A stretch of DNA of 64,000 nt from an uncultured Acidobacteriota bacterium (GTDB taxonomy: Bacteria; Acidobacteriota; Terriglobia; UBA7540), in assembly GCA_963804995.1 (NCBI GenBank), contig CAWDSK010000005.1, positions 192,001-256,000 on the forward strand, given 5' to 3'. Made by a program: the position numbers. The first letter of the stretch is position 1, and each line of letters starts with the position of its first letter. Below are positions 27,001-33,000 of the stretch, piece after piece.

Positions 27001-30000
27001 CTGTCCCATATGTTGCGCCACGCGAGGCGTAGCGACCGTAGTCCCACCAATTTCCCACCTTCAGCGTTTTCCCCCCTGACATTTTGTTATGTGCGCCATC
27101 CCGCCCTTCTCGCTGCCTTCTGCTTTCCGCTTTCTGCCTTCCGCCTTCTGCCTTCCGCCTTCTGCCTTCTGCCTACTGTTCTTTCCAAAGTGCGCGGCGG
27201 GTTCGAAAGCTTTCTCAAGCGCCTGCCGGTAAGCTTCCACGTCGTAGCCCCTCCAACCTTCCCACAGAGTCCAGGCGCGCACGCGATCGTCGATGAATGT
27301 GGAGTCCGCATCGGTGATGATGAATTCGATGTTCTCACCCGGGCGCAACTTCACACCCGCGCGGTCCAGTTGCCGGGCGGCGATGGCGGTCACGCTGTTC
27401 TTCTGGTAGCTGGCGGGAGCTTTGGTAAGGCGTTTGCGAATGACCAGTTCTTCCGGAGCTACGCTACCATCCACGAGGCGCGCCACGTATTTTGCGTAGA
27501 CTTCCCGAGCCTCGCAGAGTTTGGCGCAATAGGTTGTGAAGTCGCGCGCCTCCGCCAAAATCGTCAGCACCTCAAGCTGCATCCTCGAGACCAGCGGCGG
27601 CGTGTCGTGCCGGCGGCATTCCAGCCCGCGCACTTTCAGCTCGCCCGCCTCCGACACGCAGAAAAAGCGGTTGGGCACCGGGATTTCCGCGCACTGCTTG
27701 GAAGGCAGGAAGACAACGTAGCGATAGACGGCCTCAAGCGCCAAGGGCAGGCCGGTGATTTGTTCGATTTCCTGCGCGAGCCGCAGATAGTCCGCGCGGC
27801 TGGGGACTGGGGGCTGGGGAACAGCCGAAACTCGAAAATCGAAATTCGAAACTCGCGAGGCAGTTACCGAATTTCGAGTTTCGGCCTTTTCGTAATCTCT
27901 GATTTTCGATTGCTGATTGTCGATTGAACCCGTCAATAATCGACCATCGTCAATCGTCAATGGAAAGCGAGTTTCGAATTTCGAATTTCGAGTTTCGGCT
28001 TTTTCGCAATTGCCGACTCCTGACTCCTCACTCCTAACTCCTGCCCCCTGCACATAGAGCGAATCCACCAGCGCATGCAGCACGCGGTAGCCTCGCTGCT
28101 CCGCCACCTCTTTCGCCACCAGCAATTTTTCCCGCGCCAAGGCATTGATGGCCTCGTGCGCTTCGATTTTCCCAAAGCGCGCGTTTTTGTAGCCGGTGTA
28201 CCCGAAGCAACAAACCAGCAGCCACTTCAGCACGTCGCGCCGCTGTTTACAGGCTGCGGGGTTCGGGATACGGGCTACGGGACACGGGATACGGGGTTCG
28301 GGATACGGGGTTCTGGAATCGGGAATCGGGATACTGGACACAAGATGTGGAGTTTGGGATTCTGAATTCGTGGTCCGGGGCTCGGGATTCGAAGTGGGAG
28401 AGGGGAGATTTGCCACAGAACTTTCTCCCTGCATCCTGAAACCTGGAGCCCCAATTCCGAATCCCGAATTCCGAGCCTTCAGCCCCGCAGGTTGGATTTC
28501 CAACCCCGCATCCCGTATCCCGTATCCCGTGTCCCGTGTCCCGGCCTCCGTATTCCGTGCCCCGTATCCCGTGTCCCGTATCTCCTTGTACTTTCGCCGC
28601 TTGGCGATGAGGCGCTCAACCACCCGGCTGGTGATGCCGCGATGCTGCTGGCAGACGCGATAGCCGAGTTCCGGCACGCGCGGCGCCTGCGGGCAGCACG
28701 GACAGTTCACCGTTTCCGGCGAAATATTGAAGCGCGCCATGATGCTGGGGAACTCGCTGACGAAATCCAGTTCCGCCACGTTTTCAAAGAAGCCGAGGCG
28801 CGGAGGAAAGACCAACCCGCCGCGGTCCGCAATCAGCAGCTCATCCGGGAACTTGGGGCTTTCCGGCTCCGCCTTTTGCGCCGGGATCAGCACTCCGTCC
28901 CGCCAGGCGAGTTCCATCTGCATATAGGAAATTCCCGTGCCCGGGGTGGTGCGGCAGGCGTATTGAACCGGCAATTTCGTGATCCGCACCAGTTCCCACA
29001 GGCCTTCCTGCTGGCACTGGTCGGCGCCAAAGGAATTCTGCGTGTCGATGTGCAGCCGCCCGAACAAGGTCGTGGTGCTGTCCTTGAACAGGATGCGCCC
29101 GTAGCTCATGTAACTGCGCGAACGCGTGCTCGCGACCGGCACCTGATCGCGATTCAAGGGCAGGTGGATGTGGCGCCGCTGGGCTTGCCGCAGCAAACTC
29201 GGCAGCAGGACGGAATCACCCCATTCGGTCACCAGCACGTCCGGGTCGTGGACGCGCAGCAGGCGCTCGAAAGTCGCCGCGACGGGTTGCTCAGAATCAT
29301 CCAGCACCTGCCAGTTGTCTTCGATGGCAACCTCCACAGCGCCGTGCCGCCCGTGCCGCGGATTGACGTCAGAGAGCCCTTCCAGGCGCATCCGCATGGT
29401 TCGGACGGGTGGCCGCTCGTAGTCGGTCCGCCACTCATCGTCGCGGCAGTCGATGGCCTGGATCTCACCCGCGGCATTCGCCTCAATCTCCACTTGCGCC
29501 AGGGGGAAAAGATTTTTCCCCCAACAGTACATCGGCGCCAGCATCAGGTCAGAGTCGTACAGGATCAGGTCGCTATCGAAGCGGCGGACGAAGCGCGCCA
29601 GCGGCGCGAACAGTGTGGGATGGTGCGCGGACACCTGGAGCACCCGCAGCGGTTGCCGGTCCCAGATGTTCTGCCGCTCCGTCAGTTGGCAGCTCACCCG
29701 AGCGCGGGCCGGGAGCGTTTCCGCCAGACGCGCCAGTTGCCCTTCCGGTCCCTGCACGTAAAAGCAGGGGAGGAAAGCGCTGTCAATCAGCCGGCGGCGC
29801 CTCTGGTTCGGCTCGATAAGCCACAGCACCATCCCCTGCGGGCAGGGGTAAAGGTTGAGAATCCATCCACTGAGTCTCAAGGTTTATTCCTAACGCCGCC
29901 TCGATTTTGCGCAGCCGGATTTCGTGGTCCAGCTCCACGGCCACGTGAATGCCGTGCATCGCGTCCACGGGAAAGTGATAGGTGCAAGCCTGCACGTAGA

Positions 30001-33000
30001 GGCGCACGCGATTGAACATCGCCTCCAGATACACTTGCTCTTCCTGGCGCAGGGCGCGGCCAAAGCGCTGCTTCCAGGATTGCAATTCCTGTTCGATCAG
30101 GTCACGAAAGGTGGCAACGGTTCGTCCCATGGGTCCTCCTTCCAGGGGCTGGGGACTGGGCGTCAGGATCGAAACTCGAAATTCGAAACTCGAAATTCGG
30201 TGTCCCGCTCACGAGTTTGCCCGAGACTCCGTCGGGGCAAGGGGGCGAATTTCGAGTTTCGTCCTTTCCCCTAGCCCCCAGTCCCCAGCACCTTGTCCTT
30301 CTGCATCAACCCCAGCCGGCCCTGGGCATCGAGCTGAAACTTCCAAAGTTCGGTCGCGGCCGCGCAGGTCTGGGTGAAAAAGAGCTTGCGGCGCGCGGAC
30401 GGTTGGAAACCGGAGACGGAAGAAAACAGCGCCACCGTCAAAGGTAGCGCAGAGTTTTTGGGACTCTGCGGCGCGTCAGGCCCGAAACTTGAAACTCGAA
30501 ACTCGAAATCCGGCAGCTCGCTCACGATTTTCGAGTTTCGATTTTCGAGTTTCGCCGTTTCCCCAGCACCCAGCCCCCCGTCCCTGCCGGCGAGGACGCA
30601 GCGTCGGAGGTGCCCAAGCGCCTGCCGGAAGGTCGCCTGCGCGTCGGCATCGCGCACGTCCTCATCGAAATAAAGCTCGGGGAAGGCGGTGACCATCAGA
30701 ACCTGGGCGGGAAAGTCCGCCAGAAATTGGGGCACGCGACTGATCAGCTCGGTGAGTTGAAAACAGGTGAAGGCCCGCGCGATCTTGATCTGCCGGCTGA
30801 TTTGCGCAAAGGGGATCCCGCGCTGTTCCGCCAGCCGCGCGATCAGCCGCGGGTTGGCTGAGTTCGCGCCATCGAGAAACAGAATCCGCTTGCCCTCCCG
30901 CGCCAGGCGTGGCAGGAAGTAGTGGCTGAGCCGGGGCGCGTCGTACTCCCCGTGAAAGACCGCCAGGCCCTGCGGCGGCAGATGCCAGGGCTGGGTCAAG
31001 GCAGCCGGCAGCGAAGTTGGCCCCTGCATGAACATGACTCTATCCCCCCAATAGAGACGCCCTGAGTGTAGGCGAATAAAAAGCGAAAGTCAAGTCGATC
31101 GGAAGATCGGCAGTGTCCTAGTTTGGAAAGAAGCCCCAAGTGACCCCTCACCCGTCCCGCCCCGGCTGATGAAGACGCCGGCTGCGGTCCACCCTCTCCC
31201 CTCGGAGAGGGCGGTTACTCAAGGTAAGGTGCGGTGCCGTAGCTACCCTGAGATCATAGCCTTCTCCCCAGGGGTCGCAGATCCGCCGTGGCGGAAGAAG
31301 GTGGCTGACGTAGGAAGCCGGATGAGGGGTTACTTGCACCTGCAGGGCGTCGAAACAATTTGCAACTCATAAATTCAAAAACTATTAGCCCGGCGCTACG
31401 TCAAACTAGGTCACTACCGGAAGATCGGCACACGCGCGAATCATCTGGACGAACTTTCGCTCGCGTGCTAGAAAAGAATTTCGCTTGAGCAAGGCATTTT
31501 TTTGACGAAAGCCGTCAGCTAACGCCTTAGCTGATAGCTGAAAGCTGATAGCTGATAGCTGAAAGCTGATAGCTGACGCCTGATAGCTGACCGCTAATAA
31601 CAGAAAGGACTCCTTGAAACGCATTCTCATCACGAACGACGACGGAATTGGCGCGGTAGGAATCAAAGCCCTGGAGCAGGGTCTGGCGGCGGTGGGTGAA
31701 GTGACGGTGATCGCTCCTGATCAGGAGATGAGCGCCACCAGCCAGTCAATCAGCCTGAACATCCCGCTGCGCTTCCACCGCCATGGCGAGCGGCACTACG
31801 CGGTTACCGGCACGCCCACGGACGCAGTGCTTCTGGGTCTCTACCACATTCTGCCGCAGCGGCCTGACCTGGTGGTTAGCGGCATCAATCCGGGGAGTAA
31901 TCTGGGTGAGAACGTGGCGTACTCCGGCACGGTCGCGGCGGCACTGGAGGGCACGCTGCATGGAGTCCCCTCCTTCGCCATTTCGCTCGCCACGCGCAAG
32001 CCCGTGGATTTTTCCCAGGCGGCGGCCTTCGCGGCGCAACTTGCCGTCAAGATATTGGAAGAGGGCATGGAGCCGGGAGTGTGCTTGAACGTGAACGTGC
32101 CGCGCGGCGAAGTGCGTGGCGTGCGCATTACCCGGCAGAGTCAGAAGGTTTCGCGAAACGTCGTCCTCGAAAAGCAGGACCCGCGCGGGCGGCACTATTA
32201 TTGGCTCGACGAAACCGTGGAACCGGACGCAGTTGAGCCGGATTCCGATTACGGCGCCATTCTCGCCCGCGAAATCTCCATAACACCCCTCCACGCTGAC
32301 CGCACGCATTACCCCAGTCTGAACCATATTTCCCGCTGGCTGCCCGCCTTGCAGGTGACGAAGAAGTAGAGGCTTGGGGTTGGGAATTAGGGATTCGGGG
32401 ATATTGAAATCATAGCCCTCTCCGAGGGGAGAGGGTGGACCGCCGCCGGCGTTTTCATCAGCCGGGGCGGGACGGGTGAGGGGGTACTTCACCACCCGAT
32501 GAGCGGACCCGCACCCACTTACAGAACCGGCGGCAAAGTCGGCATGTCAGGTCGGTGAGTCCGTCTTCGCCAGGGATCACGCTATCCCGAGACAGTTCTG
32601 CAACGTGCCGCAAGCAGGCCAGTCGCCGCGGTGATGTCGATATCCGCGATCAGCAATTTTTCGTCCTGCGATGTTATGATAAATTACTCGGGGGCCGCAG
32701 ATCAAACAACCGCCAGAACCATGACGAACAAAGATGTTATATCCGGGTTGGTGACGCCGATCGTCATCATCACATCGACCCTGAGCTATGTGGCGTTGAT
32801 TTTTTCCGGACCACTGGCGCCGGGACTGCCCATCGGCATCGGATACGGATTAGTCAGCGCTGGCATCATGGGGATCGTGTTTGCCGTGGGCAGCGGCATG
32901 CCCTTCGCGATCGCCGGTCCGGACTCCAAGCTGGTCGCCGTCCTCGCCGCTCTCGCTACCGTGATCGCAGGCGACCTCGCGAGTCGCGGACGTGCCGCGG

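What a model noticed while it worked through the whole genome (the two positions that open the first line are those of the whole stretch)
27061..31090. LexA regulon without recA: a TTCGC-N6-TTCGC box puts an archaeal-type PolB2 mutasome, MrfAB, DUF72 and a radical-SAM rep [...]
The iRadA-PPB2-PolB2 operon (g03329-g03327) carries the same direct-repeat operator, TTCGCYTTTTRTTCGC, as lexA itself. The box also precedes mrfAB, DUF72 and a radical-SAM gene, here and in relatives, but not recA, uvrA, uvrB, ruv, ssb or dinB, giving a small damage-tolerance regulon built round PolB2.
Evidence so far: The 7 best matches in the genome are all intergenic and include lexA (C3:409626), the PolB2 operon (C5:223072), mrfA (C5:140328) and DUF72 (C6:125218); a looser scan adds the radical-SAM gene (C4:192902). 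The box stands before iRadA in 28 of 30 PPB2 loci, this genome included, from 17 genera. In 5 other genomes 28 exact sites (control 1) precede mrfA (5), the PolB2 operon (4), the radical-SAM gene (4), lexA (3), DUF72 (2) and a distant recA-like gene (2). None in the 220 nt before recA, uvrA, uvrB, ruvC, ssb, dinB.
(Added by a program. Inside this text positions count along the whole contig: contig position 192,001 is position 1 of the stretch shown here. "Call 12" and the like, gene names such as g00115 and contig names such as C1 are that model's own, and its searches are not shown. The text may have been shortened before it was handed on; [...] marks where a part breaks off. The agent that wrote the report below was given it as the finding of a first reader that could run no searches.)

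Follow-up and report, generated by a model that had tools for sequence, protein, structure and literature searches.

The report
SOS operator of PolB2 mutasome operon
A soil Acidobacterium keeps an archaeal-type error-prone DNA polymerase operon behind what looks like the binding site of the DNA-damage repressor LexA, and among its relatives this operon and the usual bacterial ImuA-ImuB-DnaE2 mutasome almost never occur together, so one seems to stand in for the other.

Summary
The box is real. TTCGCTTTTTATTCGC (31072-31087, minus strand) fills the 17-bp spacer of the iRadA-PPB2-PolB2 promoter. The same period-11 repeat precedes lexA in 64 of 66 acidobacterial loci and the PolB2 operon in 28 of 30. 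It also precedes mrfAB, DUF72, a radical-SAM gene, a DinB/YfiT-family gene and imuA-imuB-dnaE2. It is very probably the LexA operator of the class Terriglobia, a variant of the known GTTC-N7-GTTC direct repeat; binding is inferred, not shown. The headline 'without recA' holds only for some lineages: recA has the box in 0 of 33 genomes of this family, but in 19 of 19 and 8 of 10 in two other families. LexA regulons lacking recA are already known. The regulon is not built round PolB2: many relatives carry the ImuABC cassette behind the same box. The newest result is that PolB2 (36 genomes) and DnaE2 (78) share 0 of 151 class genomes (18.6 expected); one contaminated genome of the genus has both. 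This suggests one mutasome displaces the other. The scan noted this box and a boxed PolB2 operon before on other acidobacterial DNA.

The parts
31071..31087 (-). Operator: direct repeat TTCGC-TTTTTA-TTCGC(C), period 11; predicted LexA site
   Evidence: 31.4 bits, top site of the genome; conserved before the operon in 28 of 30 PPB2 loci
31088..31093 (-). -35 hexamer TTGACT of a sigma-70-type promoter
   Evidence: 1 site found, mean 0.0 in shuffles; TTGAC precedes the box in most PPB2 loci
31065..31070 (-). -10 hexamer TACACT; the operator fills the 17-bp spacer
30271..31035 (-). iRadA, degenerate RadA/Rad51 homolog, 254 aa, no Walker A motif visible
   Evidence: Rad51 E 0.0029, below the curated cut-off; gene order as in PMC11791011
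29783..30130 (-). PPB2, partner of PolB2, 115 aa, N-terminal MGRT motif
   Evidence: MGRT motif described in PMC11791011; homologs in 36 of 151 class genomes
27061..29880 (-). PolB2 (G2 group) family-B polymerase, 939 aa with in-frame low-complexity inserts; motif C reads HALVDS, D(K/R) motif ADRGG present
   Evidence: PF00136, NF004416 377.7 bits, below its cut-off of 516; alignment with two relatives; motifs as in PMC7544198
28248..28582 (.). Heptamer tandem repeats forming an in-frame insert in PolB2 (about residues 434-545)
27800..28043 (.). Second in-frame heptamer-repeat insert in PolB2 (about residues 615-694), just after motif C
30483..30554 (.). In-frame heptamer-repeat insert in iRadA; length varies among genomes of the genus, frame stays open

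Best explanation
The repeat is the operator of the main LexA (C3:409825) of the class Terriglobia. A LexA dimer sits on the sigma-70 promoter (in the -35/-10 spacer at lexA and iRadA; in the opposite orientation at DUF72, mrfA and the radical-SAM gene) and blocks transcription. After DNA damage, RecA filaments trigger LexA self-cleavage and the iRadA-PPB2-PolB2 operon is expressed as the cell's inducible error-prone polymerase, with MrfAB, DUF72, a radical-SAM enzyme and a DinB/YfiT-family protein. Shown here: site, position, conservation, gene content, intact cleavage and catalytic residues. Inferred: binding, induction, mutagenic activity. In this family recA lacks the box; in others it has it. 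PolB2 fills the regulatory slot that ImuA-ImuB-DnaE2 fills in sister lineages.
For: Box before lexA in 64 of 66 acidobacterial loci at varying distance, the 2 misses having 41 and 0 nt upstream. A matrix trained on lexA sites only scores at least 18 bits before 28 of 30 PPB2 loci (reversed matrix 3, downstream control 0) and at least 22 bits before 7 of 10 imuA loci. It finds recA in f7 (19 of 19) and f10 (8 of 10), so it links lexA, recA and two mutasomes, the usual SOS core. Genus: 199 matches against 20 for the control in 29 genomes. Family f5 has only a divergent LexA DNA-binding domain or none found, near-background counts (14 against 7 in 20 genomes), and no box at its 2 lexA and 2 imuA loci examined. 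LexA keeps A125-G126, S159 and K197. Both orientations occur. lexA and DUF72 are enriched near bacterial polB2 in print.
Against: No binding or expression data. lexA scores are circular because the matrix was trained on them. The f5 contrast is one lineage. G042 and G108 carry boxes (7 and 4) although no LexA DNA-binding domain was found in their drafts. G032 and G035 have the orthologous LexA but only 9.3 and 15.9 bits at lexA, and G035 has no box at imuA. 18 of 40 sampled sites in relatives matched none of the 12 reference proteins. In five genomes of the genus, this one included, recA has a TTCRCY half-site at about -170 to -250, which could be a weak operator.
Confidence: 0.85

Rival explanations
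1. The repeat is bound by another regulator (the second LexA at C6:1048740, or a non-LexA damage-responsive factor) that also controls lexA.
For: A second full LexA passes TIGR00498. Two drafts have boxes without a detected LexA.
Against: lexA2 has another helix 3 (SSPKAAFDHV against SSLATVHKHL), no box upstream, its own palindrome, and lies beside methyltransferase and HNH genes. The box follows the orthologous LexA across 134 of 151 class genomes and drops where that LexA is replaced.
Confidence: 0.08
2. The motif is only a conserved promoter spacer or a sigma-factor element, not a repressor site.
For: At lexA and iRadA it fills the -35/-10 spacer in fixed orientation, followed by TA.
Against: It is reversed relative to the gene at DUF72, mrfA and the radical-SAM gene, lies right before the start codon at DUF72, and occurs in tandem, period-11 arrays (C1:630403; L342). 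Spacer sequence is not normally conserved across genes at 30% protein identity (general knowledge).
Confidence: 0.04
3. The operator is real, but the PolB2/DnaE2 exclusion is an artefact of kinship, draft assemblies or query sensitivity, not displacement.
For: Genomes are related and mostly drafts. G023 has both. No tree-based test was run. 37 of 151 genomes have neither hit.
Against: Zero overlap also within the five families that hold both (9.5 expected) and inside genera g9, g17, g21 and g61. PF00136 finds no PolB2 in the 78 DnaE2 genomes (3 hits, all another PolB type). 14 of 14 PolB2 genomes rechecked, and this genome, have one DnaE only.
Confidence: 0.2

Closest known systems
GTTC-N7-GTTC direct-repeat LexA box of Alphaproteobacteria, reported for Acidobacterium capsulatum (Mazon et al. 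2006; only the title seen, in reference lists; its content is recalled)
   Same: Direct repeat, period 11, TTC cores in register, same bacterial class as A. capsulatum; 2 of 64 lexA sites are exact GTTC-N7-GTTC. From memory, that paper also found no LexA site at recA.
   Different: The leading G is not conserved (13 of 64 at the first half, 9 of 64 at the second); GC after each TTC and a T-rich spacer are. The regulon content here was not found in the papers searched.
PolB2 mutasome operon iRadA-PPB2-PolB2 (Timinskas et al. 2025, PMC11791011; Kazlauskas et al. 2020, PMC7544198)
   Same: Gene order, MGRT arm, missing first Asp of motif C, D(K/R) motif; Acidobacteriota rows are in the paper's supplement; lexA and DUF72 enrichment noted there.
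   Different: The paper infers SOS control from gene neighbourhood only; 'operator' and 'DnaE2' do not occur in its three supplements and DnaE2 not in its main text (listing). Here lexA is unlinked and the link is an operator.
LexA-regulated imuA-imuB-dnaE2 cassette
   Same: Inducible multi-subunit mutasome with a RecA-like partner under LexA; in Terriglobia it lies behind the same box.
   Different: C-family polymerase there, archaeal B-family here; the two almost never co-occur.
LexA regulons without recA (Geobacter sulfurreducens, Bdellovibrio bacteriovorus; titles seen in reference lists)
   Same: LexA autoregulates and does not bind recA or canonical SOS genes.
   Different: Other box sequences; here the recA site is present in some families and absent in others of one class.
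Patescibacteria direct-repeat LexA box (Sanchez-Osuna et al. 2017; title seen; consensus TTCGG-N6-TTCGG recalled, not verified)
   Same: Two patescibacterial lexA loci show TTCG-N7-TTCG upstream and a similar helix 3.
   Different: Fifth base G or T instead of C, AT-mixed spacer.

Membership tests
LexA (SOS) operator | Present in the promoter of lexA itself and conserved in orthologs | tested here: met
   64 of 66 loci; 29 of 30 by a strict TTC-N8-TTC scan, the miss having a TTT variant
LexA (SOS) operator | Overlaps sigma-70 promoter elements, either orientation | tested here: met
LexA (SOS) operator | Targets enriched in damage-tolerance genes, above chance | tested here: met
   PPB2 28 of 30, imuA 7 of 10, recA in f7 and f10; 199 against 20
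LexA (SOS) operator | Cognate LexA cleavable (Ala-Gly site, Ser-Lys dyad) | tested here: met
   A125-G126, S159, K197 invariant in 7 aligned proteins
LexA (SOS) operator | Direct binding by LexA and induction by DNA damage | not testable with these tools
   needs gel shift and transcript data
GTTC-N7-GTTC box | Direct repeat with period 11 and TTC cores | tested here: met
   TTC invariant in the first half and 22 of 23 in the second among distinct sites
GTTC-N7-GTTC box | Conserved G before each TTC | tested here: not met
   13 of 64 and 9 of 64; both in 2 of 64. Filed as a variant, not as the same consensus.
PolB2 mutasome operon | Order iRadA-PPB2-PolB2, MGRT arm | tested here: met
PolB2 mutasome operon | PolB2 motif C without the first Asp, conserved His, D(K/R) motif | tested here: met
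   HALVDS and ADRGG read from the alignment against PMC7544198
PolB2 mutasome operon | iRadA is a RadA fold without ATPase site | tested here: inconclusive
   Rad51 E 0.0029 below cut-off; single-sequence model uninformative, pLDDT 33.7
PolB2 mutasome operon | Heteropentameric complex and translesion activity | not tested
   predicted in PMC11791011 for other members

The most novel reading that the evidence does not exclude
Terriglobia keep one LexA-controlled mutasome slot that is filled either by ImuA-ImuB-DnaE2 or by the archaeal-derived iRadA-PPB2-PolB2, with repeated swaps even inside single genera: non-orthologous displacement between a C-family and a B-family mutasome. This would be genomic evidence that bacterial PolB2 is the SOS mutator. 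Independently, recA has been wired in or out of the same regulon family by family, and in this genus it carries its own conserved promoter element.
Probability: 0.6. Interest if true: 0.68.

Novelty: new variant of a known kind. Interest (0 to 1): 0.5.

Why it matters
In the papers read, PolB2 has been studied by experiment only in archaea; its bacterial copies were tied to the SOS response only by having lexA nearby. An operator in the promoter of 28 of 30 operons, and near-complete exclusion with DnaE2, give two concrete predictions: the operon is LexA-repressed, and it supplies damage-induced mutagenesis where ImuABC is missing. The refined box also lets the SOS regulon be mapped in an abundant soil class, and points to DUF72 and the radical-SAM protein as repair candidates.

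Tried and rejected
Loose TTCGC-N6-TTCGC and the two-mismatch tier: not clearly above controls. Single-sequence fold of iRadA: uninformative. Sequencing runs: no RNA holder listed, no reads laid. ImuB query: too insensitive outside the family (known cassettes of G033 and G030 score only E 3e-8 and 2e-12), so used for the genus only. Three PolB hits in DnaE2 genomes (G057, G082, G155): rejected as PolB2 because they have an intact DTDG motif, about 22% identity or no hit to PolB2, and no PPB2 or iRadA hit in the locus. 'recA is outside the regulon class-wide', suggested by 1 of 30: rejected after wider sampling. A shared second motif for uvr/ruv/ssb built from the genus recA element: not found before those genes. 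Mazon 2006, Erill 2006 and Erill 2016 are not held in the library, so what they report on acidobacterial targets could not be checked and may lower the novelty.
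Full report
Observation. The window holds, on the minus strand, iRadA (30271-31035), PPB2 (29783-30130, starting MGRT) and a family-B polymerase (27061-29880). The sequence TTCGCTTTTTATTCGC lies at 31072-31087, 37 nt before the iRadA start. With the next C it fills the 17-bp spacer between TTGACT and TACACT, the only promoter-like site in 30900-31300. In the whole genome the strict pattern has 5 exact and 2 one-mismatch sites, against none for the reversed pattern; at two mismatches the totals are 17 against 14, so that tier is not informative.

Host. The closest named relatives of its LexA are Terriglobia (Acidobacteriota) assemblies. 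That is the class of Acidobacterium capsulatum (recalled).

The motif. Upstream of 66 acidobacterial lexA loci, 64 carry the repeat; the two misses had 41 and 0 nt of upstream sequence. Distance to the start varies from about 30 to 280 nt, so this is not flanking homology. From the 23 distinct sites I built a weight matrix. In this genome it gives 13 sites of at least 20 bits, against 2 for the reversed matrix and 0-5 for five column shuffles; 11 of the 13 are outside ORFs. A pattern search gave 199 matches against 20 controls in 29 genomes of the genus, matches in 134 of 151 class genomes, and, with a stricter pattern, 46 of 201 genomes of the phylum. The patterns were designed on these sites, so this genome's own count is not independent.

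Targets. In this genome the box precedes lexA, iRadA, DUF72, mrfA-mrfB, a radical-SAM gene (Rv2578c/PA0069-like, below both cut-offs), a DinB/YfiT-family gene (PF05163, not polymerase IV), an N6-methyltransferase gene and a dCTP-deaminase-like gene. It is reversed relative to the gene at DUF72, mrfA and the radical-SAM gene. I sampled 40 further pattern hits from 9 relatives, leaving out sites already known to be at lexA or iRadA and some others: 7 precede the radical-SAM gene, 5 mrfA, 4 DUF72, 3 the DinB-family gene, and 1 each the methyltransferase, imuA and a Y-family polymerase; 18 matched none of my 12 reference proteins and include dnaB, SAVED, DUF3800 and Uma2 genes and probable chance hits. 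PPB2 loci score at least 18 bits in 28 of 30 (the 30 best of 36 hits), controls 3 and 0. MrfAB is a mitomycin C repair pair in Bacillus (bioRxiv 10.1101/426304, passages seen).

Which protein binds. LexA1 keeps its cleavage site and Ser-Lys dyad. LexA2 has a different recognition helix, no box, a palindrome of its own, and sits beside methyltransferase and HNH genes. Family f5 gives a natural control: its best LexA DNA-binding-domain hit is E 7e-13 or weaker, or absent (16 and 4 of 20 genomes), its pattern count is 14 against 7 controls with off-consensus spacers, and the two lexA and two imuA promoters examined lack the box. This is one lineage, and two drafts have boxes without a detected LexA, so it supports but does not prove. 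Binding remains inferred.

'Without recA'. True here: no site above 8.1 bits within 2 kb of recA, uvrA (two), uvrB, recN, ssb (two), ruvC or dinB. My first sample gave 1 of 30 recA loci. An earlier scan note (e1-4120009) reported the box at recA in another order, so I widened the sample to 109 genomes, 108 with at least 300 nt upstream. At 18 bits or more: f1 (this family) 0 of 33, f7 19 of 19, f10 8 of 10, f13 1 of 1, f6 1 of 11, f8 1 of 7, and 0 in f2 (4), f3 (5), f4 (8), f5 (2), f9 (3), f11 (1), f12 (4). So recA is in or out by lineage, and seven PolB2-positive f7 genomes have it in. This weakens the headline and strengthens the LexA reading. Operon leaders further than 600 nt upstream were not examined in relatives. 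In five genomes of the genus a TTCRCY half-site remains at recA; a weak operator is not excluded.

PolB2 versus ImuABC. The 'distant recA-like gene' is imuA followed by imuB and dnaE2 (NF004225 over cut-off); 7 of 10 such loci carry the box, the misses being two f5 genomes and one f9. In one draw of 151 class genomes, 36 have PPB2 and 78 have DnaE2; none has both, against 18.6 expected, or 9.5 when counted within the five families that hold both. Kinship inflates any P value, and I ran no tree test, but both states occur inside genera g9, g17, g21 and g61. Checks: PF00136 hits 3 of the 78 DnaE2 genomes, all a different PolB with intact DTDG; 14 of the 36 PPB2 genomes rechecked with PF07733, and this genome, have a single DnaE. 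In the genus, 17 of 29 have PPB2 and 6 have ImuB; one, G023 (540 contigs, 6% contamination), has both. 37 of 151 have neither hit. G102, G124 and G133 are unpublished genomes and are counted in the class tallies; removing them changes no conclusion.

The operon looks maintained: PolB2 and iRadA carry heptamer-repeat inserts that differ in length among relatives, yet the iRadA frame stayed open past the insert in the 15 of 17 genus loci where the gene start was in view.

Comparison with print. GTTC-N7-GTTC is the alphaproteobacterial LexA box (PMC9578287, PMC3323433, passages; PMC8565304, introduction and passages). The present repeat has the same period and TTC cores; 2 of 64 sites match it exactly, but the G is not conserved. 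The paper on the A. capsulatum box was seen only as a title in reference lists; that it reports this consensus and no site at recA is recalled. The PolB2 operon, its lexA and DUF72 neighbours and acidobacterial members are in PMC11791011 (first two of seven parts, passages and a supplement search); motifs in PMC7544198 (passages). PMC12926913 (passages) discusses co-occurrence of Pol V and DnaE2 but, in the passages seen, not PolB2 and DnaE2. Eight library searches listed no paper whose title or abstract start deals with an acidobacterial LexA regulon or a PolB2/DnaE2 exclusion; subscription papers are missing from that library, and supplements of the other papers were not searched.

Verdict. 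A real and well-conserved LexA-type operator, a variant of a known box, on a known operon. The 'no recA' claim is family-specific and has precedents. What is worth following up is the operator-level link of bacterial PolB2 to SOS and its near-complete exclusion with ImuA-ImuB-DnaE2.

Noticed in passing
G000 C9:107097 (minus), recA promoter; L004 and genus recA loci: A different conserved element, roughly TTAARATTYYCTCAT followed about 15 nt later by CCGA, precedes recA in 14 of 18 genus loci by a strict scan; not found before uvr, ruvC, ssb or dinB. May be the site of another recA regulator.
   Followed up: partly
window 27115-27178, 27800-28043, 28248-28582, 30169-30199, 30483-30554, 31528-31590: Heptamer tandem repeats are common in this genome (124 arrays of one type) and insert in frame into PolB2, iRadA and, in relatives, ImuB; they look like a family of small repeat elements tolerated in coding sequence.
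   Followed up: partly
G000 C1:630403 (L005:4404); L345, L349, L370, L371: Boxes before defence-type genes: a tandem box at an N6-methyltransferase gene (also in G005), and boxes beside SAVED and DUF3800 genes in G061, suggesting SOS-linked defence genes.
   Followed up: partly
G000 C6:1048740 (L015:4740-5351): Second LexA with its own upstream palindrome TGTA-CTA-TACA, next to methyltransferase and HNH genes; probably part of a mobile defence island.
   Followed up: partly
G000 C5:1154138 (L012:4139): Good box just after a TTGACT/TATCAT promoter, followed by an IS1182-like transposase; either an insertion into an SOS promoter or a damage-inducible transposase.
   Followed up: no
G000 C3:4087-5782: recN is split into two reading frames at about C3:5092: frameshift or assembly error.
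   Followed up: no
G098 C19, G122 C72, G129 C14, G167 C21: In these four f4 genomes a Y-family polymerase gene lies directly after lexA; in G098 and G167 a divergent LexA-like gene lies about 6 kb from PPB2.
   Followed up: no
L113, L116: Two patescibacterial lexA promoters have TTCG-N7-TTCG and a LexA helix 3 similar to the acidobacterial one.
   Followed up: partly
L362 (G126 C1:297577): A 24.8-bit box directly before dnaB.
   Followed up: no
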